From the NCBI GenBank assembly GCA_025558095.1, contig JAIVFI010000002.1, positions 620,001 through 684,000 on the forward strand: DNA of 64,000 nt. The letters run 5' to 3'. Numbering within the stretch: the first letter of the stretch is position 1; each line of letters starts with the position of its first letter. The notes under the pieces were generated by a model. The model was given only the letters and a program-made list of their open reading frames with translations. It had not been told where the DNA came from and ran no database searches. Positions 16,540-64,000 of this stretch are shown here, one piece after another. This DNA comes from Hyaloraphidium curvatum SAG 235-1. Its lineage: Eukaryota > Fungi > Monoblepharomycota. The position numbers and the translations under genes were made by a program.

Positions 16540-16584
16540 GTTGTGATTTGCCCCCTCAGTGCCCACCCCGTGACCCTTTCGCAG

Positions 16585-27959: not shown

Positions 27960-28414
27960 TGCGACGGTCCGGGCCAGCGGCGGGCCTAGTTTGTACGCTA
28001 GCCGGACGCGCAGATGCGCTCTGAGCTTGCCGGTCGCACGCCTCAGGGAATAGGCCCTGAAGTCGGTTAGTTTGCCGGGGTTGAACTTAGCTCGTCAGGC
28101 GATGGCCGAGATCCGAAGACGTCTCAGAAGGGGACGCCGGTCGCGGAGCTCGGGCTCGCGGTGTCAGAGTCGGATTCCGATCGAATCGGGCTCGAAGGTG
28201 AACGACTGACGCAGTTACGATTCCAACTCTCTCTCGCAATACATTTCCGGCCGCCTTTATACCCGCGGCCGTGCGAGATTTCGCCAAAGTCCGGCGAAGT
28301 TCGCCGAAGTTCGCCGAATTCCGCCGCTAACTCCGAATCGCCCAAACTCGATGATGACTTCCCAAAACGTCCCAGTTAGAAAAATAGTTAGTCCGGGCGG
28401 CCTGTACCGCCACA
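27960..28414 (-). mobile_element. 3' LTR (455 bp) of a Gypsy family related to the 48201/53437 elements
   Basis: On the minus strand starts TGTGGCGGTACAGG and ends CCCGGACCGTCGCA (same end as the family A LTR); TATAAA near 28256-28261; 10-bp TTCGCCGAAG repeats in U3; preceded by G-rich PPT 28415-28423. Confidence 0.8.
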
Positions 28415-28450
28415 TGCCCCCCGGCAGAAGTAGCGCTGCCCTCAGCGCGC

Positions 28451-28560
28451 CTAGTCCATGATCGGTTCCAAGTCGAGATACTCGTCGTCGTCCGACGGGA
28501 GGTTGTCGTAGCAGAGGAGCTGTACTGCCTCCTGATCTCGCTCCCCCGCCTCCGACGACC
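28451..28560 (-). pseudogene. C-terminal remnant of the pre-PPT accessory ORF
   Basis: Reads ...LLCYDNLPSDDDEYLDLEPIMD*, an acidic tail ending MD* like ORF 44235 (...YDDGEVAMD*), in the same position just upstream of the PPT. Confidence 0.55.
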
Positions 28561-31500
28561 CTAACGAACTACTCTCTCCCGAGGATCTCGGAGCTCCGCA
28601 TCGCAAACTTGGAGCTGCGACACCGGGAACCGCAGGCTGAGGAACCTACTGAGGACGATATTTCGAACTTCTTCTCGGCACCTCCTCCGGACTCATTGGG
28701 TCCCCCGAAGCCGGACGGAGTGCCCGCCCCTCCCGTCGAGGCGCTGGAACTCAAGCTCGACCAGACGATCCTCGACGACGAACAAAGGATTCGCTTCCAC
28801 GCCCTCTGCGACAAGTACCGCGAGGTCTTTGCACCGTGGATCGGCAGATTGCGCGGCCACAAGTTCCGAATCGATACTGGGGACAGCAAGCCGATCCATC
28901 AGATTCCTTATCGCACGCCCTTCCGCCTTCGAGCCGAGATGGACAAGGTCATCGACGACCTTCTCGCTCAAGGCGTGGTTGTGCCTTCGCGGAGCCCTTA
29001 CGCCGCGCCCGGCCTCATGGTCCCGAAGGGCCACGGCTCCGGCGAGTGGCGCTTCGTGATCGACTACCGCAAACTCAATGCCATCACCAAGCGCGACGTC
29101 TACCCCATGAAGAATCCGTCGGACACGCTTGCTCTCCTCCGGACAGCACGGGTCTGGAGCATTTGCGACGTGCATTCCGGTTTCTGGCACGTGGAAGTCG
29201 CGGACGAGGACAAGGAGAAGACCGCCTTCACGACGCACCGCGGACTCTACCAATGGGAGCGCATGGCGATGGGTTTCACCAACGCACCAGCGACTTTTGC
29301 CCGCATCATGGACGAAGTCCTCGCCGGCCTCCAATGGTGGTGTTTGGTCGTCTTCATCGACGACATCATCATTTTCTCGGAAACGATCGAGGTCCATTTC
29401 CTCCATCTTGAGCTGTTCTTCCAGCGCCTGGAGCAGGCCGCAATTACGCTCAAGCTTGCCAAATGCAAGTTCTTCCGGCCGCAGGTCAAGTTCCTCGGGC
29501 ACCACGTCACGACGGATGGCCTTTCCGTGGACCCGGAAAAGACCCGCGCGATCGAGGCCTTCCTCCGGCCTGCAACAAAGAAGGACCTTCAGTCCTTCCT
29601 CGGCCTGGCCAATTGTTACCGCCCCTTCGTGGCCGGCTATGCCAAATCGCGCACCCGCTCACGCGCTTGACGCAGGACGGGGCATCGATCACTCGGGATT
29701 GGGACCAGGCCTGCGAACTTGCCTTTGCGACCCTGAAGCAGCGGCTTACGTCGGCCCCCGTGCTGCGACGCCCGGACATGGCCAAGCCGTTCGTGCTCAT
29801 CACCGACGCCAGCGACGTTGGCCTCGGCGCCGTCCTCAGCCAGCGGGACCCCGACGGCCGCGACTACGTCGTCTCCTATGCGAGCCGCGGCTTGCAACCC
29901 GGCGAACGGAAGTGGGACACACGCGAACGCGAGGCCCTCGCAGTCGTGTGGGCCTGCGAGCACTTCCGCCCATACCTCATCGGAGCCGAGTTCGAGGTCA
30001 TCACGGATCACAGCGCACTGAAATGGCTCATGGAGACCACCAAGCCCGGACGCTTGCAGCGCTGGATCCTCTGGCTTTCCGACTTTCGGTTCAAGATCGT
30101 GCACCGGGCGGGCAAGGACAACGCGAACGCGGACTTCCTTTCCCGCTACGTGCCTGCACCCTTGCCGGACGACGACGTGGACATGGAGGACGCGGAGGAC
30201 ATTCTCGACATCCCCCGCTTTCGCCCTTCAACCCTGCCCAAACCCACCCCTTCTGCTTCTGAGGGGGGGAGGGGCGGCATAATGCCGGGGAGGGATCCCG
30301 ATATTCCGCCATTTCTCCGCTCCCCCGCTGCCAGCACCTTCGAAGCATCTCTTGGAGTGCGGAGCACGGGAGGAACGCAGACGGCATTCAATTCCTCGGA
30401 GCCGACCCCGGCTCGATTTGTGGCTGTGACAGGGACCGGGGGGACGTCAGAGTTTGCCGCCGAGACCCTGCCGGGACCATCCAGGCCCGTTCAACCTGAG
30501 CAACCGACGGGCGGATCGCCCGAAGGAGCATCTATCTCAGCACTGACGCGAGCGCAAGGCAAGGCACGGGAACCGTCGGAGTTTGAAGCCGAGGCCCCGG
30601 AGCCGCAAGCGGCTGCGCCGCTCGAGGTGCTTTTGCCCATACCTTGCAGCCGCCGATCCGGAGGACGTTCCGGAGCGGGACAAGGCTTACGTTCACCCTC
30701 TGCTCTATAACGAGCTGCCCGGGTTTCGGGCTGCGCGTGCTATTGATCTTGCTGACGTTAAATCCCGCGACGCCCTCCGCAAGGTGCAAGAGGCGGACGC
30801 AGAGACAAGGTCTCTGATTCACTACGTGCGGGACAAGCAGGTACCGGCGCACAAGGCGCTGAGCAAGTTCCGCGAGAAATATGGGAGCCAGTACTTCCTG
30901 GCCAAGGACGGCGTTCTGTGTCGCCGAGACGAGATCGCGACCGGCACTCGCCGGATCCCGGTGATTCAACTGGTCATTCCGCATTCCCTGCGGGAGTCCT
31001 ACCTTCAGCGAGCCCACGATGACCCGTTGAGCGGGCACGTGGGCCGCCATCGGGCTTACAACAACCTTCGCCGACGGGTGTATTGGGTCGGCATGGCCCA
31101 CGACGTTCGGCGATGGACTCGGGCATACCCATCGTGCATGTCTCGCAAGCTTCCCTCGGTGTCAAACCAGGGACTCCTTCGATCGGTGCCTTTGACGGGC
31201 CCCAACGAGGACATCTATATCGACTACATCGGGCCGATCAAGCCAACGACGCCTCGGGGCAACAAGTATCTCCTGGTATGATCCCTTCACCAAGTGGCTG
31301 GCGGCGTACCCGACGAAGGACCTCTCCGGACCAACGACGGCGTACATGCTTTACACGCGCTGGATCCTGGAGCACGGCCTTCCGAAGCGGATACACCACG
31401 ACAACGCCAACAATCTGGACAGCAGCTACTTGCAGTACCTTTTGCTCAAGCTCGGCATCGACCGCGTTCTCGTGACTGTCGGTCACCCGCAGTCCTCGCT

Positions 31501-43733: not shown

Positions 43734-45940
43734 TGTGACGGACCGGGTCAAAGCCGGGCTTAGCGCTTTAACCCGCCACACAAGCGGTTCAATCTCACAG
43801 GTCTCGAAAGGCCCGATGTAGAGTTAGTAGCAGCCAGGGTTTGACTTAGCTTCGATAGAGATTCGCTTGAGTGAGACTTGTCTCCCGAGGGACGTCTCAG
43901 AAGGGTCGGACTTGACGGACTCGGACCTCGGCGAGGGAGGAATTCCGCACGGCGAGGACGAGTGAAAACACTGACGAACTGTAGTGATCGCGCCCACGCA
44001 CACGCACACGCACACCCTTTGGCAGTACATTCGATGGGCCTCTTATACCAGCGTTCGGGATTCGATCGGGATCAGACCGGGATCTTTCCGGGATCTCGCC
44101 GGGATCAGATCTGGATCAGGTCCTCTGCGGGTTACGACAAACGACTATTTCCCCAACAAAGTACGAAAACTATGTAAGAAAGATGGCCCGGACCTCCACA
44201 CTCCCCCACCCAGAGAAGCGCCGCCCAGGCGCGGTCAGTCCATCGCCACTTCCCCGTCATCGTACCCGATGTAGGGCCCGGGCGAGTAGGCGGGCGACGG
44301 GATGTCGGGGACGTCGGGGAAAAGCTCGTTGAAAAGGTCGTTAGGCTGGGGGGAGTTGTAGGGAGGAGTCGGGAAGTTGTACTCGGGAGCCGCGGCGGCC
44401 TGCTCGGCCTGCTCGGCCTGCTCCGCCACCCAGGCGAGGAAGTCGAGCCCAGCGTAGCGGGTCTGGATGGAAGCGAGGTCGCCGCGAATCGTGTTGTACT
44501 CGGCAACCGTGCGCTTGGCGAACTGATGAATATGCTCCATGTTGCAACGCATGACGTCATAGTCATGGCCCGTGATCGCGTCGAGGGCCGTAATGCCGGC
44601 GTCGAGGTCGGTGATCGCGGAGGCGACGTCGTGGTTGCTGGCTTCGATGGCCAGGGCGACCCTGTCGTTGACGAGGTCGATGGTGGTGGTGATCGTGTCG
44701 GGCAGCGTGCGCACGCCGTCGTGGATGAGGTTCACCTTGTAGTTGATGTCGCAGGCGATGTTATCCACGAGGGTGATGTCGGCCAAAATGGAAATGGCCG
44801 TGTCGGTGATCGTCGCTCGGATCGGGGTGATGGCCTCGTTCATCTTGGCGATTGCCGCGGGAAGCGGAGTAACAAGGCCATCGAGCTGGTCGAACCGGTT
44901 GACGAGAAGAACGCGGAGGGCGTCGCGGTGCCGACGGGCGTCCACATCGTACTGATGCACGAGGTGGTAGGTGTTGTTGGAGGAGTGGTACGCGTCAAGA
45001 GTCTTCAGGCGGATGTCCTCGAGGTCTTTCTGCACGCTGATGACGATGTCGGAGAGCGCAGCGTGCTGCTGGCGCTGCGCTTCCAGCACGCCGTCGACAT
45101 GAGCGATGTGGGTGTTGATCTGGGTGCGCATTTGTTTGGTCCAATCGCGCATTTCGACGAGCTGCGGGTTGATGCTGTCGGCGACCTTGGTGGCGGACAG
45201 ACTGGATCCCGAAGGCTGTGCTAGCCGCCGAACCCCACTGCATAATCTCCACCGCGAGCCGGTCATAGTCGCGATGCAAGTCCATGTCACGAGTGCGGCA
45301 ATCCATGTCTGAGCCACGGAACTCAGAGAGCAGGTTCTCGAGCAGGCCCTCGACGCAGCGCAGGTCGGCGGCGCTGGCCGTCACCAAGGGTCCAACGGGA
45401 CTGATCGAGCCGGTCGAGTCCGTGTCGTGGACGGTGAACGAGCTCGTCGACGTAACCGAGTCGTCGGAACGGCTCGACGAGGGCGAGCCGGAGTTGCGGC
45501 GTGCGCGGGTCAGCACCAACGGCGGCGGGGATGCCTGGCGCTTGGCCGCGTGGGCACGGCCGGCCTTGCTGGCCATGGCGAGGGGCTCCATCGTAACGAC
45601 TTTCGATGAGCAGAGGTGTGCTTGGGGCGGAAGAGGGCGAAGCAACTTGGTGGGAGACAGAGCCATGGGACGCGACCCTTTATACCGCCGGATCCTGATC
45701 TGATCCTGATCTGGGATCTAATCCGGATCAGCTTCCGGGATCAGGCGGGATTTTTTCGGGATCAGGATCGGATCTGCCCGGCATCAGGCTGGGACCGGGA
45801 TCTTTCCGGGATCTCGCCGGGATCAGATCGGGATCAGATCAGGATCAGATCGGGATCAGGTCCTCTGCGGGTTACGACAAACGACTAGTTCCCCAACAAA
45901 GTACGAAAAATATGTAAGAAAGATGGCCCGGACCTCCACA
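43734..45940 (-). mobile_element. Gag-pol-less LTR element: U3-like start, accessory ORF, PPT, full 3' LTR; inserted in Copia
   Basis: 4-bp TSD TCGG (43730-43733 / 45941-45944), and the Copia frame rejoins across it (EAAVMP|TVTANAVS). 3' LTR 43734-44200; PPT GGGTGGGGGAG 44201-44211; the 5' end matches the LTR only up to the GATC array. Confidence 0.85.
44235..45591 (-). pseudogene. Coiled-coil accessory protein (homolog of 62208-63473), one frameshift near 45195
   Basis: Joined from ORFs 44995-45666 and 44235-45317; low-complexity N-terminus, heptad-like core with VLEAQRQ, acidic Pro-rich tail; TATAAA at 45679-45684 (minus). Confidence 0.7.
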
Positions 45941-48687: not shown

Positions 48688-48688
48688 C

Positions 48689-48854: not shown

Positions 48855-50510
48855 ATGGACCCCGTTCAAGAAGCCGCCCCTCAGCAGGAGGTTCAGCAGC
48901 CTCAGGAAGCTAACGATTTGCAGAACAACCCGCAGGCCCAGGCGATTATCCAAGCTGCGCAGGCCGCGATCCAGCAAGTCGGCGCCGCCGCCAACGACGT
49001 CGCCCAACTCGCCGCCCAGCAAGCCGCCCAGCAAGCCGTCGCCGATCAGCTTGCCGCTCAGCTCGTGGCGCAACAGACCGCTCAGCAGTTGCCAGCTGCC
49101 CAAGTTCAACAGCAAGCCGCCGCCGAGCAGCTTGCAGCGCAGCAGCTCCAGCAGCTCGCCGCACAGCAGCAGGGTCAGCGGAGCGAGCAAGCCCCGGCTG
49201 TCAACGCTGCCGCCGCTGGTCTCCAGCCGCAGCAGTTCGTCGACGCCGTACGGGCCATCGTTGGCGCTCAGCCGCCGAACGATGGAAGCACCGGCCTCCC
49301 CCAGGCGGATCGCCAGGGCGGAGCCGCCAAGCTCCCGGCTCAGCTGCTGCCTGCTTCTGTTCAGCCCTTCGATCCCGCTACGCAGGACCCGGAAGACTTC
49401 TTCCGCGACCTCACTACGGTTCTCACGGCGTTCGGCTCCATCAACAACCTCGTCAAGGTCTTCCCGGTCTTCCTTGGGCCTCTGCCGCGCGCAATGTGGC
49501 ACAACATCACGCCGCAGAACCGCCCTCCGGACTATCCCGCGACGGCCACCTATCCTCCGGTGACCCAGAACGATGTGCTTGCCTGGCTACGCTACCACTT
49601 CGAGCCCCGCGACGCATCGATGCATTATCGCCGGCACTACAACACGATTCAGATGACCAACGATGAGACCCTCGACGCCTTCGTTGCCCGCGTATCCCTG
49701 GCCGAGACGCGTTTCCTCTCGCACTGCGGCGATCAGCTTCCTACCAGGGAAGTGCAAGACAGCGTGTACGGCCAGAACCTGCTCTACGGACTGCGCCCGG
49801 AGCTACGCGGGAAGGCGCTGGAGCTCCTCGGGGATCACCTCATCAACCGCACTTCCGTCACCAAGGTCATCGAGAAGATGCGCACCGTCATGCAAGCATC
49901 GGGCCCTGCGCAGCCGCGCGACATCCGTTTCCTGGGCCAGAACTCGATTTCGGAGATTCCGGCTCTGGTCGGCCAGCACTCGTCTTCGGGCTCCTCCAAG
50001 GCGACCGACAAGGCGACGACGGAAGTGCTGCTGGCTCATACGCAGGCTCTCACAAAGCTGCTGGAGCCTAAGGCAGAGCGCAGGCCCACCGGTGGACCGC
50101 CGGGGGAGTCTGCGTTCCGGCCTCCGCGCCGTTTCGTCCCCTTCCAGTCTCGTCGGAGCCAGCCGTTGCCGCCTTCGGGGCCGAACAGCGACCTCGTCGA
50201 GATCAAGGAGCTCATCACCAAGCTGCTGCCGTCGCCTCGCCATCAGGTTCAGGCCGCGGAGACCAGGTCGAACCCCCCCGCGAGGCCTCCTCCGATCGAT
50301 CGGCCCCGTCAGCAGCAGGAGCGCCAGGATCGCCGGCCCTTCACCTCGGAGTACCGCGACCAGAAGCGCTTCCAGCCTCGCCACTGCCATCTCTGTGGCA
50401 TGGATGGGCATGCTCAGGACGAGTGCTGGGAGTTGGAGAAGAATGCCAACCGCCGCCCACTCAACTGGAAGTCTCGCCTCGGCAACACCCCTTCGATGCC
50501 AAAAAACTAG
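48855..50510 (+). CDS. gag: Gag with Q/A-rich N-terminus and CCHC knuckle
   Basis: MDPVQE start; CHLCGMDGHAQDEC; ends at slippery A AAA AAC TAG. Confidence 0.9.
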   Translation: MDPVQEAAPQQEVQQPQEANDLQNNPQAQAIIQAAQAAIQQVGAAANDVAQLAAQQAAQQAVADQLAAQLVAQQTAQQLPAAQVQQQAAAEQLAAQQLQQLAAQQQGQRSEQAPAVNAAAAGLQPQQFVDAVRAIVGAQPPNDGSTGLPQADRQGGAAKLPAQLLPASVQPFDPATQDPEDFFRDLTTVLTAFGSINNLVKVFPVFLGPLPRAMWHNITPQNRPPDYPATATYPPVTQNDVLAWLRYHFEPRDASMHYRRHYNTIQMTNDETLDAFVARVSLAETRFLSHCGDQLPTREVQDSVYGQNLLYGLRPELRGKALELLGDHLINRTSVTKVIEKMRTVMQASGPAQPRDIRFLGQNSISEIPALVGQHSSSGSSKATDKATTEVLLAHTQALTKLLEPKAERRPTGGPPGESAFRPPRRFVPFQSRRSQPLPPSGPNSDLVEIKELITKLLPSPRHQVQAAETRSNPPARPPPIDRPRQQQERQDRRPFTSEYRDQKRFQPRHCHLCGMDGHAQDECWELEKNANRRPLNWKSRLGNTPSMPKN

Positions 50511-53436: not shown

Positions 53437-54079
53437 TGCGAAGGTACAGGACGTCTGACATTCGGACAAGGGTATTTTCATTTTCGGTTCGGAGGCGTGG
53501 AGGCGTCGGTCCTCGCGATCGACTCGTGATCGACTCGCGATCGACTCGCGAGTGACTCGCGAGTCACTCGCGAGCGACTCGCGAGCGACTCGCAAGTGAC
53601 TCGGCACAGCCACCCTCCTGGGATATATAAAGAGCGGGACATGTAACAGTACAATCTTGATCGCCAGTTGACTCTACGTGCTCTCCGTGTCGTTCGACCA
53701 CCGTGCGGAACCCCGCCCGGCCGGATCCTCGTTCTGAGAGCCCTTGGGACGCACCCCGGGAGACATCCCGTAACCTCTTTCCCCCGGCTACAGTCAAGTA
53801 TCTTCAGCGCTGTTCGCTTATTCATATTCAGGGCCTATCCGACCCGAAGAGCCGAGCGGGATTCGCGCGCCGGGTTAGAGCTTCAGGCCCGGTTCCGACC
53901 CGGACCGTCGCACTGGTCCGACCTCCGTGATCCTGCTCTCGGGTCTTCGACACCTCGTTCGACTTCAGTTTCGACTTCGATAATCCAAAAACAACTTCGC
54001 CTGGCACCGGCGCTTGTCGACTGCCACTCTTTTCTGTCAACCGTATTCCGTCAACCAAGTTCATTCCCCTTCGCCAAAC

Positions 54080-55735
54080 ATGGACCCCGTTCAAGAAGCC
54101 GCCCCTCAGCAGGAGGTTCAGCAGCCTCAGGAAGCTAACGATTTGCAGAACAACCCGCAGGCCCAGGCGATTATCCAAGCTGCGCAGGCCGCGATCCAGC
54201 AAGTCGGCGCCGCCGCCAACGACGTCGCCCAACTCGCCGCCCAGCAAGCCGCCCAGCAAGCCGTCGCCGATCAGCTTGCCGCTCAGCTCGTGGCGCAACA
54301 GACCGCTCAGCAGTTGCCAGCTGCCCAAGTTCAACAGCAAGCCGCCGCCGAGCAGCTTGCAGCGCAGCAGCTCCAGCAGCTCGCCGCACAGCAGCAGGGT
54401 CAGCGGAGCGAGCAAGCCCCGGCTGTCAACGCTGCCGCCGCTGGTCTCCAGCCGCAGCAGTTCGTCGACGCCGTACGGGCCATCGTTGGCGCTCAGCCGC
54501 CGAACGATGGAAGCACCGGCCTCCCCCAGGCGGATCGCCAGGGCGGAGCCGCCAAGCTCCCGGCTCAGCTGCTGCCTGCTTCTGTTCAGCCCTTCGATCC
54601 CGCTACGCAGGACCCGGAAGACTTCTTCCGCGACCTCACTACGGTTCTCACGGCGTTCGGCTCCATCAACAACCTCGTCAAGGTCTTCCCGGTCTTCCTT
54701 GGGCCTCTGCCGCGCGCAATGTGGCACAACATCACGCCGCAGAACCGCCCTCCGGACTATCCCGCGACGGCCACCTATCCTCCGGTGACCCAGAACGATG
54801 TGCTTGCCTGGCTACGCTACCACTTCGAGCCCCGCGACGCATCGATGCATTATCGCCGGCACTACAACACGATTCAGATGACCAACGATGAGACCCTCGA
54901 CGCCTTCGTTGCCCGCGTATCCCTGGCCGAGACGCGTTTCCTCTCGCACTGCGGCGATCAGCTTCCTACCAGGGAAGTGCAAGACAGCGTGTACGGCCAG
55001 AACCTGCTCTACGGACTGCGCCCGGAGCTACGCGGGAAGGCGCTGGAGCTCCTCGGGGATCACCTCATCAACCGCACTTCCGTCACCAAGGTCATCGAGA
55101 AGATGCGCACCGTCATGCAAGCATCGGGCCCTGCGCAGCCGCGCGACATCCGTTTCCTGGGCCAGAACTCGATTTCGGAGATTCCGGCTCTGGTCGGCCA
55201 GCACTCGTCTTCGGGCTCCTCCAAGGCGACCGACAAGGCGACGACGGAAGTGCTGCTGGCTCATACGCAGGCTCTCACAAAGCTGCTGGAGCCTAAGGGA
55301 GAGCGCAGGCCCACCGGTGGACCGCCGGGGGAGTCTGCGTTCCGGCCTCCGCGCCGTTTCGTCCCCTTCCAGTCTCGTCGGAGCCAGCCGTTGCCGCCTT
55401 CGGGGCCGAACAGCGACCTCGTCGAGATCAAGGAGCTCATCACCAAGCTGCTGCCGTCGCCTCGCCATCAGGTTCAGGCCGCGGAGACCAGGTCGAACCC
55501 CCCTGCGAGGCCTCCTCCGATCGATCGGCCCCGCCAGCAGCAGGAGCGCCAGGATCGCCGGCCCTTCACCTCGGAGTACCGCGACCAGAAGCGCTTCCAG
55601 CCTCGCCACTGCCATCTCTGTGGCATGGATGGGCATGCTCAGGACGAGTGCTGGGAGTTGGAGAAGAATGCCAACCGCCGCCCACTCAACTGGAAGTCTC
55701 GCCTCGGCAACACCCCTTCGATGCCAAAAAACTAG
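54080..55735 (+). CDS. gag: Gag (copy A2)
   Basis: Same as 48855-50510 with one substitution (KAE/KGE). Confidence 0.9.
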   Translation: MDPVQEAAPQQEVQQPQEANDLQNNPQAQAIIQAAQAAIQQVGAAANDVAQLAAQQAAQQAVADQLAAQLVAQQTAQQLPAAQVQQQAAAEQLAAQQLQQLAAQQQGQRSEQAPAVNAAAAGLQPQQFVDAVRAIVGAQPPNDGSTGLPQADRQGGAAKLPAQLLPASVQPFDPATQDPEDFFRDLTTVLTAFGSINNLVKVFPVFLGPLPRAMWHNITPQNRPPDYPATATYPPVTQNDVLAWLRYHFEPRDASMHYRRHYNTIQMTNDETLDAFVARVSLAETRFLSHCGDQLPTREVQDSVYGQNLLYGLRPELRGKALELLGDHLINRTSVTKVIEKMRTVMQASGPAQPRDIRFLGQNSISEIPALVGQHSSSGSSKATDKATTEVLLAHTQALTKLLEPKGERRPTGGPPGESAFRPPRRFVPFQSRRSQPLPPSGPNSDLVEIKELITKLLPSPRHQVQAAETRSNPPARPPPIDRPRQQQERQDRRPFTSEYRDQKRFQPRHCHLCGMDGHAQDECWELEKNANRRPLNWKSRLGNTPSMPKN

Positions 55736-58700
55736 CTTTGCCCTCAGTGCCGCACGGCCATAGGGGGGCAGAGATCCAAGCTCTTGAACCACATGTGGAA
55801 CCTCTTCCTGGAACTTCCCCGCTGCCGGACGGCACGGACCCTTCATCTCCTGGCGGATCGCCGGAGTTGTCGGATTCCGCGACCGATGAACCGACGGCGG
55901 AGGACCACGTTCATCATTGGCCCTTCGGGGGCACGGAGTACATCCTCTTCCTCGAGGCGGAGGCAGCTCGACAGGCCGCCGTTCGTCAGCAGCGGGAGGC
56001 GCTCATGCCGATCGACGAGACCCTGGCCCCGCCGCCGGCAGCGGATTCGGCGTCGCCCGGCTCGGTCGAGGTCGTGGGAAACGGTGAACCGGCGGCACAG
56101 GATGCGGACGCGGGATCAGCGGATGCACCTATGCACGAGGGCCCGACCGTCCGCGCCGTTCCCGGACCTTTCGAAAGGCCCCCTCCTCCTTCCGCCTACG
56201 CACGACCACCGCTGCCTGGCCCTCGGCCTCGCCCGCGGCCACCTGCTCCGGTCGCCCCTCCGCCGGATCGCTGGACGTGGACTTCGCAAGTGCAGTTCCA
56301 CTATCAGGCGGCACGCGTTTCGGCATGGGTCAACGGCGTGAATACCCCCGCGGCCCTCGTCGACTCCGGTGCCTCAGTGGTGGCGGTTCGGTCGTCCTTC
56401 TTCTGCCGGATCCACCCGTCGCCACCGATCAAACCATGGACACTCGGCACCCTCAGCACGGCCGCGGCCGGCGGAACCATGTGGGTCCGCGGAGTTGCTA
56501 AGATGGACATCCTGGTCGGGAATCAACACTGCGTCATGGACGTCGCCATCATGGACGGTCTCATGGACGACGTGATCCTCGGCACCCCTTGGCTCTCCGC
56601 CCTACGCGTTCAGATGGACTGGGAGACGCCGGTCCTCTATTTCAAGGACGATCCGGAGGGGGTCGTCGTGCCAATGCACATTGTTGCGCGACCGCTCTTC
56701 GGATCACACCTGGTCGCCCCGCTCCATTCAACCACCTCCATCACGGTCTACCCCAACGAGGACGTCTCGATCACCGCTGAGCTGGCCCCGACGACTCCCT
56801 TGGCGACCGTCGTGGAGATGGACTTGACAGGGGTCATCGAGACGCCGAACACTTCGCCGTTCGATCGCCTCTTCATCATCCCGTCGGCGACGCCCGACAG
56901 AGACGGTCGGCTGCCGATTCTCATCCGCAACTACGGGACGACACCGGTCACGATCGGCCCGGGCACCCACCTCGGCCGCTTCCGCGTGCGGATTCCTGGA
57001 TTTCTCGCTCCGGAACCGCCCACGTATCTGGCTCCCGCGCAGATCTCGATGCTGGAGCCCGAGCTGCCCCACACCGAACCGGCCGAATCCACGCTCACGG
57101 TCGAGGAGACCATCGATCTGTTCGCGGTGCCCTCGCCGGGATCGATTGGACCACCTCAGCCTCCCGGCGTGGAGCCTCCTCCGGTCGAGGCTATCGAGCT
57201 CAAGATGGACCAAACGATCCTGAGCGAGGGGGACAAACCTCGTTTCCATAAGCTCTGCGACCGCTACCGGGACGTGTTTGGTCCTTGGATCGGCAAGCTG
57301 CGCAACCATCGCTTCCGGATCGACACGGGCGACCTCAAGCCGATCCACCAGATGCCGTACCGGACCCCGTTCCGGCTTCGCGGGGAAATGGACAAGATCA
57401 TCGACGACCTGCTCGTGCAGGGCGTAGTCGTCCCCTCGCGAAGCCCCTGGGCCACGCCCTGCATCATGGTGCCAAAAGGGCACGGCTCGGGCGAATGGCG
57501 CCTGGTGATCGATTACCGGAAGCTCAACGCCGCCACCAAGCGCGACGTCTACCCGATGAAGAACCCAAGCGACACTCTCGCTCTCCTCAGCGCGGCCAAG
57601 GTGTGGAGCGTTTGCGACATCCGCTCCGGCTTTTGGCACGTGGAGGTGGCCGACGAGGACAAGGAAAAGACGGCCTTCACGACGCACCGCGGTCTCTACC
57701 AGTGGGAGCGGATGGCCATGGGCTTTACCAACGCTCCTGCAACCTTTGCTCGGATCATGGACGAGCTCCTCGCCGGCCTCCAGTGGTACTGCTTGGTGGT
57801 CTTCATCGACGACATCATTATCTTCTCGCAGACGGTCGACGAGCACCTCGTGCACCTGGAGCTCCTCTTTGACCGACTGCGCGAGGCCGGGATGACTCTG
57901 AAGCTGGCCAAATGCAAGTTCTTCCGCCGCGAGGTCAAATACCTCGGGCATTACGTCACCGCCGACGGCCTCAAGGTCGACCCCGAGAAGACCCGCGCGG
58001 TGGACCAGTTCCCCCGCCCAACGACCAAGAAGGAGCTCCAATCGTTTCTCGGCCTCTCCAACTACTATCGCCCCTTCATTGCCGGCTACGCCAACATTGC
58101 CAGCCCGCTCACCCGCCTGACGCAGGACGGCGTCTCGGTCTCTCGGGCCTGGGACGACGCATGCGAGGCCGCCTTCCGTATGCTAAAGGAACGGCTTACG
58201 TCGGCGCCCGTGCTCCGTCGCCCCGACTTTTCCAAGCGCTTCGTCTTGTTCACGGATGCCAGCGATATCGGCCTCGGCGCGGTGCTCAGCCAGCGGGACT
58301 CCGATGGCAAGGAGTACGTCATCGCCTACGCCAGCCGCGCTCTGCAGCCGAACGAGCGCAAGTGGGACACTCGGGAGCGCGAAGCCCTGGCCGTTGTTTG
58401 GGCATGCGAGCATTTCCGGGCGTATTTGATCGGGGACGAGTTTGAGGTGGTCACCGACCATAGCGCCCTCAAATGGCTCTTGGAGACCTCCAAGCCGGGC
58501 CGCCTACAGCGCTGGATCCTCCGGCTCTCGGACTTCAGGTTCCAGATCATCCATCGCTCGGGCAAAGCGAACTCCAACGCCGACTTCCTGTCTCGTCAGC
58601 TCGTGGCGCCGTCGCCCGACGAGGACGTGCCTATGGGCGACCCCGAGGAAATCTTGGACATCCCTGCCTTTTGGCCCCCAAACCCTCCCGACCCCTTGCC

Positions 58701-60783
58701 TTTTTCTTCTTTTTCTGGGGGGGGACGGGCGCCCGGATTCCTCTCCGGGAGTGATCTCGGTCAGACTTCCCGTTCTTCGTCAACCCCAGTCACCGAGTCA
58801 GACTCGGGACGAGCTACTGCGGGTTCCTCAGTCAATTGTGAATCAATGGAGCGAGTGCTGTCTGGCACGGAGTTCCCGGCCACGGTTGCCGCAGTGGAGG
58901 GAACCCTGTGGAGCGATCCGGGGACCCTGCCCGAGGCTGCGGCACCGGAGACGCAGATCCTCCTGCCGATCCCAACGACGAACGCACAGGTCGACCCGGC
59001 AGACGTGCCTGAGCGAGACCTGGCGTTCCTTCATCCGGCACTGCTTGAGGTGCTACCCGATGTCGGGGGCATCAGTGCTATTGACCTTGCCGACGTCAGA
59101 TCCCGGGATGCCCTGCGCAAAGTGCAAGAAGCCGACGTCGAGACCAGCGCGCTGATCCGCTTCGTACGAGACGGGGAGCTCCCTCCCAACGTGAATCTGG
59201 CCAAATTCTGCAAGAAGTACGGCGAGCAGTACTTCCTCGCTACGGACGGCGTGCTCTGCCGGCGCGATGTACTCGCGACTGGTACCCGTCGTATCCCGGT
59301 CACCCAGCTCGTGATACCGCACGAGCTGAGGGAGGCCTACCTGCAACGTGCGCACGACGATCCCCTGAGCGGGCACGTCGGGCGACACCGGGCGTACAGC
59401 AATCTGCGGCGCCGCGTATATTGGGTCGGCATGGCGCACGACGTTCGCCGCTGGACGCGAGCCTGCCTTACATGCATGACCCGGAAGATGCCTTCGGTAT
59501 CGAACCAGGGCTTACTGAAATCGGTTCCTCTCACAGGTCCCAACGAGGACATCTACATCGACTACATCGGCGAGATCAATCCGGCCACGCCCCGCGGCAA
59601 CAAGTACCTTCTCGTCGTCTACGATCCGTTCACTAAATGGGTCGCGGCGTATCCGACTCCGGACCTCTCTGGGCCGACGACGGCGAAGCTGCTCTATACG
59701 CGATGGATTCTCGAGCACGGTCTTCCGAAGCGGATTCACCACGACAACGCCTCGAACCTGGACAACCATTACATGGAGTACCTGCTCAAGCTACTCGGCA
59801 TCAACCGGGGCCTGGTCACGGTTGGGCATCCCAGGGCTTCCCTCGCGGAGCGCCCGAACCGGTGGATCATCGACGCCCTGAGCGCAGCGGTCTCCAAGAA
59901 CTACCAGACATGGGACGAGGACATCGTGGGGGTCATCTTTGCCTTCCGGACCTCCATCCACGCGACGACCGGCGAAACTCCGTTCTTTCTGATGCATGGT
60001 CGGGATGCTCGTATTCCGCTCGACCTACTTTACGACGAGACCGAGATTCGCGAGCCAGTGCACCTGCGGGCCAGCGACGAGGAGGACAAGAAGACAGAGG
60101 ATGAGCGCCGGCGGACCTACGTCGTGGAGCTCGTGGCGCAGCTTCGTGCGGCCTACGACCTGGTGGCCGAGAAGATGGCCGCAGCGGCGGAGACTCGGAA
60201 CGCCAAGGCCAACGCTACCCGGCTTCCGATTACCTTCCGCCCCGGCGACCTCGTGCTCATCTGGGGACCAGAACGACCGCGCAAGGGCGAGCCGGGCAAG
60301 TTCGTCTCTCGTTATCTTGGGCCCTACCGCATCGAGGAGTCAGGCCACACCGAGCTCACCTGGAAGTGTAGACACGTCTACGAGACCGACCACGTCACCA
60401 CTGTGCATGTGGACCGGCTGGCGCGCTACAAGCCTTGGGAGTCGGCCACCTTCAACGCGCGCTCGTGGAACGCACGCGCCCCGGAGCTCGCCGCCGGTGA
60501 AGAGCTCGATCTCTCGGAACCGGTGAACGAGTTCGAAGAGGAAATCGAGGTCGAGAACGCGCTTGGGAACGAGCAGGAGTACACCGTCGAGGACATCGTC
60601 GGCCACGAGGGCCAGGGTCACGGACTCAAGTTCGAGGTCAAGTGGCGGGGCTTCGCTCGCACGACCAAGCTCCCTCTGGACATGTTGCACGGCGCCATAG
60701 GGATCGTCCGCGCCTATGCCGATCGCGTTGGTCTCCAGCTCCCGACGGGTCTCCCCAGGCGCATGCGGACTCGGCGTCGCTAG
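55726..60783 (+). CDS. pol: Pol (protease, dUTPase-like insert, RT, RNase H, integrase, chromodomain-like), -1 frameshift from gag
   Basis: LVDSGAS; VVFIDDII; TDASD; HDDPLSGH...CLTC; YIDYIG, HHDNAS, LAERPN; LGPY; YTVEDIVGH...FEVKWRGF. Confidence 0.95.
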   Translation, partial: KKLALPSVPHGHRGAEIQALEPHVEPLPGTSPLPDGTDPSSPGGSPELSDSATDEPTAEDHVHHWPFGGTEYILFLEAEAARQAAVRQQREALMPIDETLAPPPAADSASPGSVEVVGNGEPAAQDADAGSADAPMHEGPTVRAVPGPFERPPPPSAYARPPLPGPRPRPRPPAPVAPPPDRWTWTSQVQFHYQAARVSAWVNGVNTPAALVDSGASVVAVRSSFFCRIHPSPPIKPWTLGTLSTAAAGGTMWVRGVAKMDILVGNQHCVMDVAIMDGLMDDVILGTPWLSALRVQMDWETPVLYFKDDPEGVVVPMHIVARPLFGSHLVAPLHSTTSITVYPNEDVSITAELAPTTPLATVVEMDLTGVIETPNTSPFDRLFIIPSATPDRDGRLPILIRNYGTTPVTIGPGTHLGRFRVRIPGFLAPEPPTYLAPAQISMLEPELPHTEPAESTLTVEETIDLFAVPSPGSIGPPQPPGVEPPPVEAIELKMDQTILSEGDKPRFHKLCDRYRDVFGPWIGKLRNHRFRIDTGDLKPIHQMPYRTPFRLRGEMDKIIDDLLVQGVVVPSRSPWATPCIMVPKGHGSGEWRLVIDYRKLNAATKRDVYPMKNPSDTLALLSAAKVWSVCDIRSGFWHVEVADEDKEKTAFTTHRGLYQWERMAMGFTNAPATFARIMDELLAGLQWYCLVVFIDDIIIFSQTVDEHLVHLELLFDRLREAGMTLKLAKCKFFRREVKYLGHYVTADGLKVDPEKTRAVDQFPRPTTKKELQSFLGLSNYYRPFIAGYANIASPLTRLTQDGVSVSRAWDDACEAAFRMLKERLTSAPVLRRPDFSKRFVLFTDASDIGLGAVLSQRDSDGKEYVIAYASRALQPNERKWDTREREALAVVWACEHFRAYLIGDEFEVVTDHSALKWLLETSKPGRLQRWILRLSDFRFQIIHRSGKANSNADFLSRQLVAPSPDEDVPMGDPEEILDIPAFWPPNPPDPLPFSSFSGGGRAPGFLSGSDLGQTSRSSSTPVTESDSGRATAGSSVNCESMERVLSGTEFPATVAAVEGTLWSDPGTLPEAAAPETQILLPIPTTNAQVDPADVPERDLAFLHPALLEVLPDVGGISAIDLADVRSRDALRKVQEADVETSALIRFVRDGELPPNVNLAKFCKKYGEQYFLATDGVLCRRDVLATGTRRIPVTQLVIPHELREAYLQRAHDDPLSGHVGRHRAYSNLRRRVYWVGMAHDVRRWTRACLTCMTRKMPSVSNQGLLKSVPLTGPNEDIYIDYIGEINPATPRGNKYLLVVYDPFTKWVAAYPTPDLSGPTTAKLLYTRWILEHGLPKRIHHDNASNLDNHYMEYLLKLLGINRGLVTVGHPRASLAERPNRWIIDALSAAVSKNYQTWDEDIVGVIFAFRTSIHATTGETPFFLMHGRDARIPLDLLYDETEIREPVHLRASDEEDKKTEDERRRTYVVELVAQLRAAYDLVAEKMAAAAETRNAKANATRLPITFRPGDLVLIWGPERPRKGEPGKFVSRYLGPYRIEESGHTELTWKCRHVYETDHVTTVHVDRLARYKPWESATFNARSWNARAPELAAGEELDLSEPVNEFEEEIEVENALGNEQEYTVEDIVGHEGQGHGLKFEVKWRGFARTTKLPLDMLHGAIGIVRAYADRVGLQLPTGLPRRMRTRRR

Positions 60784-61974
60784 TAACACCAACGACGTCT
60801 ATCCGGTCACAGCACTACCATCTCTGTGCTCCGATCCCCGGCTTTTCACTGACTCAAACCCGACGTACTACCTCGAGCCTATCCTCGACCCCCTCGAACG
60901 CCAACTTGTGATACCCGGACTGAAAATGCGTGTTCAGATTGCCCAGGAGGCCCTTAGCCTTGTGCTTTACCAGATGGCACCACGGGAACGAGCATACCGC
61001 CACTTCGCCCTTGGTGGGGCTCCGGTACAGTTCGCCGGCGTACGTTCCGGCAATCTTCCATCGGAGGAAGGAGCCTGCCGGCACGGCATCAGGGACCTTC
61101 TTCGTCACCCGTTCCGCCTTCAAGCCCCAGACCGGCGACGACTTCTTCATCTGGCACATTCAGTGACGATCAGCGCTTGTGGGGCGTACTCCCGTCGAGC
61201 CGTTCACCTGCGCAATCTGCTCCCGGGCCTCCCCGCGCTGCACCACATGCCCCTCGTCTTTACCTGAAGTTGCCGTTTGGGCCGTCTGGAAGGCGCTCCC
61301 TTGTTCAGTGGCGGCCTCGAAGTCGCCTAAGTGGTCCAGCTCCCAAGAGGGCGCATGAAGCGTGACTGACAGCACGGGGACTTCGTCGGCCGCCTCGAGC
61401 TCCTCCCTCGAGTCCGCCGCCGACTCGCCCTCGCCGACGGAAGGCGCACCCTTCGACGACATCGCCGGCAGGAAGACGCCGGAGGTCCGGGTTGCGGCCG
61501 CGGCCGCGATCGGGTCGTTGCCTCTGGCCCCGCCAGCCTCGCGCAGCTTGGCGGTCCCGCCGGCCTCGCGCAGCTCGGCGACGAGCCGACGGAGCACTCG
61601 GACCTCGACAACGACGTTCCCAGCCTCTTCGGCCAGCGGCAACATCCCGCGCATGGCGGCCAGACGCACCAGTTGCAGGAAGCAGTCGACCACGTCGTCC
61701 TCCTGGCGCGGCGCTGAGCTCCCGTTCGAGGACCACGCCGCTACGCTCTTACCTTGGTGCACAGCAGGACGTCGAAGGTCGGCAACCGAACCTCGAACCA
61801 CGAACTCGGCGGGACGACGTTCGGCAGCTCCGCACTCATGACAGGCGCGGAGATCCCCCCAGCTCTTCTGGACCCTACGTCGCGATCCCCCGCGAGCGCT
61901 TTCGTCGACGCAATGGCGTACGGCCCTCGCTCGCGCCCCGTCCCCCGTGGCGGGGACTGGTGACCCGGTGTGCG

Positions 61975-62140
61975 GGCGAACTCGCGGTCGACTCGACTCG
62001 CAGTTGACTCGCGGTTGACTCGCGGTTGGCTCGCGGTTGACTCGCAAGTGACTCGCGAGTCACTCGCGAGTCGCTCGCAAGTCACTCGCGAGCGACTTGC
62101 GATGCACTCGCGAGTTGCCTGCGCTTCGCACCATATAAGC
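61975..62140 (+). promoter_or_regulatory. Internal promoter: ~12-13 copies of the LTR 11-bp repeat followed by TATAAG
   Basis: Units such as AAGTGACTCGC and GAGTCACTCGC match U3 units; TATAA at 62134-62138; ATG at 62208. Confidence 0.75.
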
Positions 62141-62207
62141 GGCGGACCACAGGAGGCCGCGGCCGCGGACTACGCACCCAACGTCGACCTCGCCGCTACC
62201 GTCTCCC

Positions 62208-63473
62208 ATGGCGACCCCCACGACTGCCGGCCACAACCTGCGGCCCCGCCGGCCGCATGTGGCCACGGCGCCGCCGCCGGCGACTGCGCCCGTCGCTGCG
62301 TTGCCTGGCGTCGTACCCCCGGACTATCGGTCGGCGCTTGCCTCCCTCTCGACCCGGCTGGACGACCTCCGGGCCGACCTCGACGTCAGACACTCCCAGA
62401 CGACGGCCCACTTGCACAAGGTCGAGCAGGCCGCCTTCTCCGCGGTCATGCCCATCCGCGCAGCCCTCGACGCACTCCACCCGGTGCTCAACACCCTCGT
62501 CAATGTCGGCAACCTGGAGCAGCACGCTCTTGACCGCGTAACGGCGACGCTCGAGCAGCAAGAGGCCCGCCTGGACGCCCAGATCCGCCAGCAGCGTGAC
62601 GAGCTCCAGGTGGTCCTCAGTGGCCGCCACCGCGAACTTGAGTTCGCCGTCACCGCCTTGCGCCGGACCGACGACGCTCGTCTCGGTGCCATCGAGACGC
62701 AGCTCGACCGGCTTGCGTTGGTGCTCGAGGCTCAACGTCAGAACTTCAACGGCATTCTCCTGGTGGACGAAGCTACCATCGAGGAGTTGAGGGAGTTCGG
62801 CTCTTCCCTCGCCGGGCTGGTTGCTCAGACCGGGACCAACCTCGAAACCACCATCGAGACCGTCGTCGAGACCAATCTCGCCCGTCACAACAATGGCCCC
62901 ATGGCGGAGTTTGCGGCCGACCTCAAGAGCGTCCTGGCGGCCCATCTGCAGCGATTTGGGTCGGAGCAGCACAAGCAGCTCATGCTTTCAGCTCAAGACC
63001 ACACCACGCTCCTCACGGCCGGCCTGAACGCGCAGCGCGAGCACTTCACCAAGACCGCCGACGAGCAACGGGCCCTCCTGCGTCGCTTCCTCGGCAATCA
63101 AGTGGCTCCCCTGGCGGGGCAAACGACGCCCGCCGTGGTCACCTCCACGCCGGTCGGCCGCGTCAAGGACGAGGACCTCGTCACCTCCGACGATGAGGCT
63201 GGGGATATGCAACCTCCAGCTCCTCGCCCCGAGAGCGTGTCCAGCAGCGACGCCTCCTCCATCGTCTCGCAGGACGACGGCCTCTTGGCCGCCCTGTACG
63301 ACGACATCCCGGCCGCTCCCTACAAGTCGACCATGCCCCCGGTCTACACCCCCTCGGCCGCGGACGGCTCAGCCGTGCATGCCGCCTTCGCTCTCGGCTT
63401 TACCCGCCGGCTCCGCGCCCCGCCGCCGAGCGACGACGAGGCGGACGCCGACGTCGACTTTGAGGACGCCTAA
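62208..63473 (+). CDS. Accessory coiled-coil protein (421 aa, ORF3) inside the Gypsy element
   Basis: Intact ORF with strong GC3 bias; Pro/Ala N-terminus, long heptad-like core, acidic tail; no signal peptide or TM evident. Confidence 0.85.
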   Translation: MATPTTAGHNLRPRRPHVATAPPPATAPVAALPGVVPPDYRSALASLSTRLDDLRADLDVRHSQTTAHLHKVEQAAFSAVMPIRAALDALHPVLNTLVNVGNLEQHALDRVTATLEQQEARLDAQIRQQRDELQVVLSGRHRELEFAVTALRRTDDARLGAIETQLDRLALVLEAQRQNFNGILLVDEATIEELREFGSSLAGLVAQTGTNLETTIETVVETNLARHNNGPMAEFAADLKSVLAAHLQRFGSEQHKQLMLSAQDHTTLLTAGLNAQREHFTKTADEQRALLRRFLGNQVAPLAGQTTPAVVTSTPVGRVKDEDLVTSDDEAGDMQPPAPRPESVSSSDASSIVSQDDGLLAALYDDIPAAPYKSTMPPVYTPSAADGSAVHAAFALGFTRRLRAPPPSDDEADADVDFEDA

Positions 63474-63615
63474 GCCACCCTTCGGCCCTACACTCTCCAA
63501 CATCTGTTGTCTCCACCTCGGCCTTCAACATCTTCTACTGCAAGCATGACGTCACTCCGCGGAGGATCTTCGATTTCGTGGCGCCGAGGGCGGCGCCTTC
63601 TTTTGGGTGGGGGCG

Positions 63616-64000
63616 TGCGAAGGTACAGGACGTCTGACATTCGGACAAGGGTATTTTCATTTTCGGTTCGGAGGCGTGGAGGCGTCGGTCCTCGCGATCG
63701 ACTCGTGATCGACTCGCGATCGACTCGCGAGTGACTCGGCACAGCCACCCTCCTGGGATATATAAAGAGCGGGACATGTAACAGTACAATCTTGATCGCC
63801 AGTTGACTCTACGTGCTCTCCGTGTCGTTCGACCACCGTGCGGAACCCCGCCCGGCCGGATCCTCGTTCTGAGAGCCCTTGGGACGCACCCCGGGAGACA
63901 TCCCGTAACCTCTTTCCCCCGGCTACAGTCAAGTATCTTCAGCGCTGTTCGCTTATTCATATTCAGGGCCTATCCGACCCGAAGAGCCGAGCGGGATTCG
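63616..64000 (+). repeat. 3' LTR of copy A2 (partial), only four 11-bp repeats
   Basis: Matches the LTR at 53437 apart from array length (63696-63739). Confidence 0.95.

What the first reader, a model, noticed from the sequence alone, without database searches (positions are those of the whole stretch)
61975..63615. Gypsy lineage with a separately promoted, non-Env coiled-coil ORF3, seen in three families
Seen: intact element A2 has a 421-aa ORF between pol and the PPT. It is preceded by a longer copy of the LTR-U3 11-bp array and a TATA box. A second family (44235-45591, minus) has an ORF in the same position with the same layout and the shared heptapeptide VLEAQRQ, behind its own U3-type GATC array. 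A third (28451-28560) keeps a matching acidic tail. All three share a GGGC(G/A)GCGC..TTCT motif before the PPT and related LTR ends. Known: extra ORFs in Gypsy are usually Env (signal peptide + TM, spliced from the LTR transcript) or plant Athila/Ogre ORFs; this one has no obvious signal or TM. Inference: a conserved accessory gene co-regulated with the LTR, possibly a particle scaffold, anti-silencing factor or copy-number control.
Basis: partly seen in the sequence, partly recalled or inferred. Interest (0 to 1): 0.85.

Follow-up and report, generated by a model that had tools for sequence, protein, structure and literature searches.

The report
Retrotransposon with back-to-back accessory genes
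A very young jumping gene, most likely of a freshwater fungus, carries two extra genes back to back around a second copy of its own terminal-repeat DNA array, one encoding an orphan protein predicted to form long helices and the other, spliced and backward-facing, a predicted zinc-finger protein, and the pair likely works as a switch by which the element controls its own transcription.

Summary
ORF3 (62208-63473) is real. It has gag/pol-like codon bias, no membrane segment, and no relative except a second copy named as a Hyaloraphidium curvatum protein. It follows an 11-unit copy of the LTR's palindromic array and the element's only TATAA outside the LTRs.

A 292-codon antisense gene (61839-60854) faces away from the same array. 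Both its GT-AG introns are removed in contigs of a probable RNA run, and it ends in a BED-like C2H2 finger.

The three-family claim holds for lineage (LTR ends, pre-PPT motif) and position, but not for protein sequence (BLASTP E 0.074). Family B's copy is a frame-broken deletion derivative without gag-pol, and family C's is a 45-codon inverted remnant. No start site or DNA binding is shown.

Best reading: a self-regulating promoter cassette working like foamy-virus Tas or VANC, with ORF3 as a probable adaptor. The parts are each known (Tor internal promoter; Grande, Retand and Boty antisense ORFs); I did not find the combination in print. The scan noted the same layout earlier on other DNA of this genome (e1-10607986).

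The parts
53437..53912 (+). 5' LTR of element A2 (TGCGA...TCGCA, 476 bp), with U3 array 53512-53603 and TATAA at 53626
   Evidence: 0 substitutions against LTR1 (476 matched) and LTR3 (385 matched)
53914..53924 (+). primer-binding site (begins TGG, one base after the LTR end)
   Evidence: sequence; match to a tRNA-Tyr 3' end is recalled, not tested
54080..55735 (+). gag-position ORF, 551 aa, with a CCHC-type knuckle; slippery A-run at 55724-55732 before its stop, pol in the -1 frame
   Evidence: Pfam gives no gag hit
56005..60783 (+). pol (from first ATG): protease, RT, RNase H, integrase, weak chromo-like end
   Evidence: chromo E 0.02, below cut-off; Ty3 RT is the best solved relative, E 1e-76
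60854..61150 (-). antisense gene exon 3 (98 codons + stop), with C-x4-C-x16-H-x5-H finger at 60994-60908
   Evidence: ESM Atlas 0.90-0.94, incl. clusters carrying zf-BED (12% of members) and zf-C2H2_12 (84%); no Pfam hit
61151..61207 (-). antisense intron 2, 57 nt, GT..AG, contains an in-frame stop
   Evidence: skipped in an X1 contig, not in X2-X4
61208..61702 (-). antisense gene exon 2 (165 codons)
61703..61752 (-). antisense intron 1, 50 nt, GT..AG
   Evidence: skipped in an X1 contig, not in X2-X4
61753..61839 (-). antisense gene exon 1 (ATG at 61839, 29 codons)
61975..62116 (.). internal copy of the LTR U3 array, 11 clear units from 61996, palindromic core
62134..62138 (+). TATAA, the only one in the element outside the LTRs; 17 nt after the array and 70 nt before the ORF3 ATG
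62208..63473 (+). ORF3, 421 aa: Pro-rich basic start (1-37), predicted long amphipathic helices (38-299), acidic mostly disordered tail (22 D/E vs 7 K/R in the last 121 aa)
   Evidence: orphan
63580..63601 (+). pre-PPT motif; its G-rich part is the 3' arm of a possible stem-loop (7-bp stem, AGGG loop)
   Evidence: the MFE fold shows this stem in C but not in A or B
63605..63615 (+). polypurine tract
63616..64000 (+). 3' LTR, cut by the window end; 4 array units fewer than the 5' LTR
43734..45940 (-). family B unit: U3 half + GATC array + TATAA (45684) + frame-broken ORF (45591-44235) + motif + PPT + full LTR (44200-43734); 4-bp target duplication; no gag-pol
27960..28590 (-). family C: 45-codon acidic ORF end (stop 28451), motif, PPT, LTR (28414-27960), joined in inverted orientation to C pol
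   Evidence: junction bridged by an X1 contig 28331-29733
32507..33200 (-). family C: decayed antisense reading frames right after pol, with a candidate GT..AG intron (32903 or 32896 to 32857) and a frame-broken Cys/His finger-like end
   Evidence: similarity to A exon 3 is weak (53 of 5000 shuffles); splicing not seen

Best explanation
Element A2 is a very young Ty3/gypsy retrotransposon whose pol-to-PPT region holds two divergent accessory genes around a duplicate of the LTR's palindromic array, which likely acts as a two-way internal promoter in a self-regulating switch. SHOWN: the layout, the coding signal of both genes, removal of both antisense introns in contigs of a probable RNA run, and the absence of Env features. 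INFERRED, step 1: the array and its TATA start an ORF3 mRNA ending in the 3' LTR, and the same array drives the antisense gene. Step 2: the antisense protein binds the 11-bp palindromic units through its BED-like finger, in the LTR and in the internal copy, so one factor controls both promoters (positive feedback or anti-silencing, as with foamy-virus Tas or VANC). Step 3 (weakest, about 0.3): ORF3 is a soluble coiled-coil adaptor whose acidic tail supplies the activating or chromatin-recruiting surface. Each family has its own palindromic unit and its own unalignable accessory proteins, as expected if binder and site change together.
For: Layout. Of 10 joints listed by read laying outside this gene (4, 6), 1 has CT..AC ends; both joints inside it do, they appear only in X1 (0 depth in X2, X3, X4), and together they open 292 codons, which 18 of 5609 possible GT-AG intron pairs do. 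Codon bias of the antisense gene 0.123 and ORF3 0.215, each 0 of 500 shuffles. Finger: motif and Atlas 0.90-0.94 with 164-176 shared features. Promoter: 3 TATAA in 10.5 kb, each after an array; longest array internal. Family B's 5' piece matches its LTR U3 at 86 of 88 bases, then carries a longer GATC array (19 vs 7 GATC) and a different TATA context; this is what recombination with an internal array would leave. Family-specific units: ACTCGCGAGT (A), GATC-core (B), TTCGGCGAA-type (C). A and C pol are 61-77% identical over four segments (78-80% in RT-RH), while their accessory frames barely align. ORF3: 3.55-3.6 hydropathy period over residues 40-185 and long predicted helices. Precedents: PMC4402516, PMC7390438 and PMC11963269 (passages); PMC5735166 (abstract).
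Against: No start site, RNA level or strand can be read from contigs, and X1 is RNA only by the tool's guess and by its joints. One X1 contig runs unbroken from 61620 to 63643 across the array, so one long antisense RNA from the 3' LTR fits equally well. There is no TATAA on the minus strand. An antisense GT-AG joint also occurs inside the pol of an unrelated chromovirus (36739-36795), so antisense splicing alone does not prove a protein. The finger has no Pfam hit at E up to 5, and Atlas recognition (2268) is just under its 2300 mark. DNA binding and the ORF3 role are untested. The structure models are poor (mean pLDDT 53, pTM 0.26-0.28). ORF3 homology between families is not significant. No dN/dS was possible. 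Family C's antisense frames are broken, and its exon 3 pieces show no positive codon score (-0.04, -0.02).
Confidence: 0.45

Rival explanations
1. ORF3 is a structural accessory of the particle or RNP (an oligomeric scaffold or transport adaptor) made from its own promoter; only the antisense finger protein is a regulator.
For: About 260 residues of predicted amphipathic helix in both A and B. Coiled-coil ('CC') ORF3 types are named in bdelloid LTR elements (PMC5408684, passages). A separate promoter would set its dose apart from Gag.
Against: No known fold stands out: generic coiled coils only (best Z 8.2 at rmsd 4.4 over 164 for A, 10.3 at rmsd 7.3 over 161 for B, both within the range the tool calls common for helical models). 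There is no RNA-binding-type basic region, and the protein is net acidic (58 D/E vs 37 K/R).
Confidence: 0.25
2. The cassette is a brake (copy-number control): antisense RNA and ORF3 dampen the element, and the internal array titrates a host factor or drives RNA that forms duplexes with the genomic RNA.
For: Antisense spliced RNA exists, also over another element's pol. Rearranged copies keep ORF3 or its 3' part while losing pol: the B unit, the 59580-61620 deletion seen in DNA and X1, and the P0001 locus. dsRNA regulation is discussed in PMC7264820 (sections read).
Against: The antisense gene keeps a long codon-biased frame through two introns, which a non-coding brake does not need. The family is evidently spreading: LTRs have 0 substitutions, and A1 and A2 are 99.7% identical.
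Confidence: 0.15
3. The extra ORFs are captured or decaying passengers, independently acquired in each family, and the array is an inert tandem expansion.
For: No significant protein similarity between families. The B and C copies are broken. ORF length alone is not significant. Family-specific arrays of unknown function are common in Retand pol-3'LTR regions (PMC11963269, passages).
Against: No host or other homolog among 1.84 billion representatives. Strong codon bias, same position, size and layout in A and B. TATAA only after arrays. Frame-preserving splicing.
Confidence: 0.1
4. ORF3 is a remnant of an Env or fusion protein.
For: It holds the env position and has long heptad-like helices. 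gp41 appears among tied generic hits (Z 7.9 at rmsd 10.8 over 148; Z 8.1 at rmsd 5.4 over 122). Tor env is also made from an internal promoter (PMC4402516).
Against: No hydrophobic signal or TM segment (best 19-residue hydropathy 1.2 in A; 1.07 and 1.37 in B's two pieces) and no Cys in A. No viral fold at E up to 0.001.
Confidence: 0.05

Closest known systems
Antisense additional ORFs between pol and 3' LTR (aORF-3R): maize Grande gene23, rice RIRE2, Silene Retand/TRP28, Botrytis Boty brtn (PMC7264820 parts 1-2 of 3 read; PMC11963269 and PMC8365987 passages)
   Same: [quoted passage not shown] Own promoter reported for Grande. DNA binding predicted for TRP28. Family-specific tandem arrays in Retand, which also has some sense ORFs without TM regions.
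   Different: No TRP28 or SMC hit. Here there are two introns and a C2H2 BED-like finger, the array is a copy of the LTR's own U3 array, and it sits between the antisense gene and a TATA-led sense gene. The host is an early-diverging fungus.
Oikopleura Tor3b/4b elements (PMC4402516, passages)
   Same: Ty3/gypsy-type element whose third, sense ORF is transcribed from an internal promoter rather than spliced from the LTR RNA.
   Different: Tor Env is a TM glycoprotein with conserved cysteines; ORF3 has neither. The passages read mention no antisense partner and no LTR-array duplicate.
Foamy virus internal promoter and Tas/Bel1 (PMC7390438, passages)
   Same: Proposed logic: an element-coded DNA-binding factor made from an internal promoter acts on both the internal and the LTR promoter.
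   Different: A retrovirus with env. Its internal promoter lies in env, has little sequence likeness to U3 and runs in sense only. No sequence relation to Tas was tested.
VANC anti-silencing proteins of VANDAL DNA transposons (PMC5735166, abstract only)
   Same: Family-specific tandem target repeats paired with fast-changing accessory proteins.
   Different: DNA transposons of Arabidopsis. No homology found, and neither binding nor demethylation is shown here.
Non-Env ORF3s of bdelloid LTR elements: GDSL, DEDDy, CC, TM (PMC5408684, passages and section 3.3)
   Same: Family-specific third ORFs in the env position, including a coiled-coil class.
   Different: The paper describes such ORF3s as typically expressed from spliced messages. 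No enzyme domain here, and no sequence match.

Membership tests
Ty3/gypsy LTR retrotransposon | LTRs with TG...CA ends, PBS and PPT | tested here: met
Ty3/gypsy LTR retrotransposon | pol order protease-RT-RNase H-integrase; Ty3-like RT | tested here: met
Ty3/gypsy LTR retrotransposon | target-site duplication | tested here: inconclusive
   4 bp for the B unit; A2's right end lies beyond the window
Chromovirus clade | chromodomain after integrase | tested here: inconclusive
   PF00385 E 0.02, 15.3 bits vs cut-off 25.1
Chromovirus clade | RT groups with chromoviruses in a tree | not tested
   no named reference set; only 37% identity to the window's clear chromovirus RT-RH; metagenome relatives 27-49%
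Env-bearing gypsy (errantivirus / Tor / Athila-like env) | signal peptide and TM anchor in ORF3 | tested here: not met
   hydropathy scan only, best 19-residue mean 1.2; the usual threshold near 1.6 is recalled
Env-bearing gypsy (errantivirus / Tor / Athila-like env) | conserved cysteines | tested here: not met
   0 Cys in ORF3
Env-bearing gypsy (errantivirus / Tor / Athila-like env) | fusion-protein fold | tested here: inconclusive
   low-confidence model; generic helical hits
Env-bearing gypsy (errantivirus / Tor / Athila-like env) | mRNA spliced from the LTR transcript | tested here: inconclusive
   no such joint among the 6 listed; contigs drop rare forms
aORF-3R antisense accessory genes | antisense ORF between pol and 3' LTR | tested here: met
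aORF-3R antisense accessory genes | transcribed in antisense | tested here: met
   two minus-strand GT-AG joints in X1 only; X1 is not on record as RNA
aORF-3R antisense accessory genes | TRP28 (PF04195) domain of Retand | tested here: not met
   no Pfam hit in exons 2 and 3
aORF-3R antisense accessory genes | present in most copies with pol-like conservation | tested here: inconclusive
   no genome held; the family C counterpart is broken and barely alignable
BED zinc finger | C2H2 ligand pattern | tested here: met
   C-x4-C-x16-H-x5-H
BED zinc finger | profile match to PF02892 | tested here: not met
   none at E up to 5; Atlas lead 0.92 to a cluster with 12% zf-BED
Tas-like / VANC-like autoregulation (works-like claim) | same target sequence at the LTR and at an internal site | tested here: met
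Tas-like / VANC-like autoregulation (works-like claim) | internal start site; element-coded protein binds and activates | not testable with these tools
   needs CAGE or 5' RACE, EMSA, reporters

The most novel reading that the evidence does not exclude
A lineage of 'complex' fungal LTR retrotransposons carries a self-contained two-gene transcription switch. A duplicated LTR enhancer array drives both a BED-finger reader of that array and a coiled-coil activator partner. Reader and palindrome co-evolve family by family, and array length, which changes faster than point mutations, tunes activity. It would be a retrotransposon counterpart of Tas and VANC built from different parts.
Probability: 0.3. 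Interest if true: 0.85.

Novelty: new variant of a known kind. Interest (0 to 1): 0.62.

Why it matters
Extra ORFs in LTR retrotransposons are common, but the reviews read here say their function is unknown (PMC7264820, PMC11963269). This element offers an unusually testable case: a candidate DNA-binding protein, its candidate site repeated at both promoters, and three families with different sites that serve as specificity controls. If it holds, element-coded transcription control of the complex-retrovirus kind also exists in env-less gypsy elements of an early-diverging fungus. It would also supply orthogonal binder-site pairs.

Tried and rejected
No genome is held for this window, so there was no genome-wide copy search and no dN/dS.

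Homolog searches. ORF3: 1 hit among 7995 candidates and 1 among 1.84 billion representatives, both its own second copy; Atlas best 0.79, a lead only. B's downstream frame: 0 of 5671 candidates at E up to 1. Antisense exon 3 against longer proteins: 0 of 36 candidates; proteins of near or shorter length were not searched.

Pfam gives only sub-threshold coiled-coil-type hits: Baculo_PEP_C for both A and B, DUF1664 for B. Foldseek: PDB 0 matches, viral 0 at E up to 0.001. VIA-align gave generic helices only. An ESCRT-III likeness was considered; Snf7 appears only as a tied row for B (Z 8.6, rmsd 6.0, 109 aligned) and was rejected as non-specific. Homodimer prediction of ORF3 38-300: no verdict (score 0.01).

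Related loci. Integrase query: 0 of 148 stretches. RT-RH query: 21 distant loci from 109 stretches, none matching ORF3, B's ORF, gag or the antisense exons at E up to 0.01. Viral contigs: 0 of 2. Rfam: none in 60700-64000.

RNA. No RNA holder is listed on record. X1 has no cover at 39239-41906 and 46576-47899, but DNA run X3 also lacks cover in parts of these, so the silent-stretch control is weak. X1 contig depth is higher over ORF3 than over pol, but it is one figure per contig and was not used as evidence.

A shared tail motif (hydrophobic-x-x-hydrophobic...[YF]-D/P-D/N-hydrophobic-P) is visible by eye in A, B and C but is not significant. The first tail test used a wrong frame for C and was redone. 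Whole-LTR alignments are significant only for B-C (0 of 300 shuffles; A-B 36, A-C 43 of 300, run before the true LTR ends were fixed).

Literature. Nine searches found no paper on this layout or on Hyaloraphidium retrotransposons. The library lacks most subscription papers. The primary Grande, Boty and Steinbauerova papers were seen only as citations, and no supplements were opened.

Full report
Setting. No whole genome is held for the window. The only relative of ORF3 in two large searches is P0001, named by NCBI as a Hyaloraphidium curvatum hypothetical protein on another contig, 100% identical over 80% of the query. The window's own ORF3 is the other member of that cluster. The window is therefore most likely from this species, a freshwater fungus of the chytrid-related Monoblepharidomycetes (classification recalled).

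The element. A2 runs from a 476-bp LTR at 53437-53912 (TGCGA...TCGCA, followed by a PBS) through gag (54080-55735), pol in the -1 frame (stop 60783; protease, RT, RNase H, integrase, weak chromo-like end) and a PPT (63605-63615), to a 3' LTR that starts at 63616 and is cut by the window. Its RT is closest to Ty3 among solved structures. The three A LTRs differ by no substitution, only by whole 11-bp array units (9.4, 8.4 and 4.4 copies), so the family is very young and its array changes faster than its bases.

ORF3. The 421-aa frame is as described. Its length could be chance at this GC content (207 of 2000 simulations), but its codon use equals that of gag and pol and beats 500 of 500 shuffles. 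It has no Cys and no TM-like stretch. A low-confidence model (pLDDT 53) gives helices over residues 38-299 and a mostly disordered acidic tail, and hydropathy over 40-185 has a 3.55-3.6 period. Pfam, Atlas, Foldseek and VIA-align give only generic coiled-coil leads. It is an orphan and not Env.

Array and TATA. Eleven units at 61996-62116 are 79-81% identical to the LTR arrays, and the core is a perfect 10-bp palindrome. TATAA occurs three times in the 10.5-kb element on either strand, once after each array. This is good sequence evidence for an internal promoter. A start site is not shown.

Laying public runs on 53400-64000 showed two joints in run X1 (RNA by the tool's guess), absent from X2, X3 and X4, whose skipped parts read GT..AG on the minus strand. 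Removing them (61752-61703 and 61207-61151) opens 292 codons from an ATG at 61839 to a stop at 60854. Unspliced, the longest frame is 164 codons, and only 18 of 5609 possible intron pairs give 290 codons or more. The codon bias is positive (0 of 500 shuffles). The last exon holds C-x4-C-x16-H-x5-H, which the ESM Atlas places at 0.90-0.94 near small proteins that include zf-BED (12% of one cluster) and zf-C2H2_12 (84% of another); Pfam itself gives no hit. The array therefore sits between two divergent genes. Two caveats apply. An antisense GT-AG joint also lies within an unrelated chromovirus pol. One X1 contig crosses the array unbroken, so contigs cannot tell two divergent RNAs from one long antisense RNA.

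The other two families. A, B and C are one lineage: they share LTR termini and a pre-PPT motif found exactly three times in the window against 0.02 expected. In A and C that motif can form the 3' arm of a stem-loop with an AGGG loop and one compensatory pair; this is read from the sequence, and the MFE shows it only in C.

Family B is not a full element. The unit 45940-43734 is U3-array-TATA-ORF-PPT-LTR with a 4-bp target duplication, and X1 holds the empty site (skip of 2211 with 4 shared letters). Its first 88 bases match its LTR at 86 positions, after which a longer GATC array and a different TATA context lead into the ORF. The simplest origin (inference) is recombination or strand transfer between the 5' LTR array and an internal array of a parent built like A2. 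Its ORF is frame-broken near 45190-45195, has strong codon bias and a similar helical build, and has no homologs. A second B copy is visible in X3.

Family C keeps a 45-codon acidic ORF end, motif, PPT and LTR, joined in inverted orientation to its pol; an X1 contig bridges the junction. After its pol, C has decayed antisense frames with a candidate intron and a broken Cys/His end. P0001 begins with antisense pol joined to ORF3 at a 7-base shared sequence, which implies the same kind of inversion in another A copy.

Are the ORF3s homologous? Sequence does not show it. A against B scores 54 (111 of 2000 shuffles), BLASTP E 0.074, and the tails match by composition only. VLEAQRQ is the one unusual match (40 of 20000 local shuffles, similar position, 5 of 7 codons synonymously different), but one post-hoc word is weak. 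Orthology is probable from position, size (421 vs about 451 codons) and layout; I put it near 0.6. A and C pol stay 61-77% identical while their accessory frames barely align (exon 3: 53 of 5000 shuffles), and each family has its own near-palindromic array unit.

Mechanism. The best-supported model is a self-regulating cassette. The duplicated array drives both genes (inferred, about 0.7), the finger protein reads the palindromic units at both promoters (inferred, about 0.5), and ORF3 acts as a coiled-coil adaptor with an acidic activating tail (inferred, about 0.3). The rivals are a particle scaffold, a copy-number brake, passengers and an Env remnant.

Comparison with what is known. [quoted passage not shown] PMC3248453 (passages on fungal LTR elements) showed nothing on this layout. 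Nine searches found no report of the combined layout; most subscription papers are outside the library, and no supplements were read. I had recorded my reading before seeing it, and it is not independent support. Similar antisense accessory genes were noted in other genomes, so the general kind is recurrent.

Verdict. New variant of a known kind; interest 0.62.

Noticed in passing
window 48201-53436: Copy A1 is 99.7% identical to A2 but stops inside pol exactly at A2's 5' LTR. A2 is probably nested in A1; the target duplication would lie beyond the window end.
   Followed up: partly
window 59580-61620: A deletion variant seen in DNA run X3 and in X1 removes the integrase 3' part and the antisense gene's finger but keeps the array and ORF3.
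   Followed up: partly
window 53912 to 63615: One X3 contig joins an LTR end to an LTR start, as a tandem insertion or a two-LTR circle would. Single contig, 30 letters on the short side.
   Followed up: no
window 28575-28600 and protein P0001: The same inversion geometry (pol reversed, joined to the 3' part of ORF3) appears in family C and in another A copy; a 10-bp palindrome lies at C's junction.
   Followed up: partly
window 36740-36794: A 55-nt minus-strand GT-AG intron is removed in an X1 contig of a related copy of the chromovirus pol, so antisense spliced RNA also covers that family.
   Followed up: no
window 33200-42318: Ty3/chromovirus elements with short (about 130-bp) repeated termini, gag and chromodomain pol; one copy is internally deleted.
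   Followed up: no
window 42287-43733: A copia-type pol fragment, into which the family B unit is inserted.
   Followed up: partly
window 13902-16424 and 22665-25829: A hAT-type transposase (DUF659, hAT dimerisation) and a long ORF with a weak RT hit, probably non-LTR.
   Followed up: no
window 2559-18147: A run of long, apparently intron-poor host genes that look by eye like methyltransferases and glycosyltransferases; not scanned.
   Followed up: no
window 46000-48000: An AT-richer (45% GC), strongly skewed spacer with a perfect 15-bp tandem repeat at 46676-46736 and a 150-aa Cys/His-containing ORF at 47294-47746.
   Followed up: no
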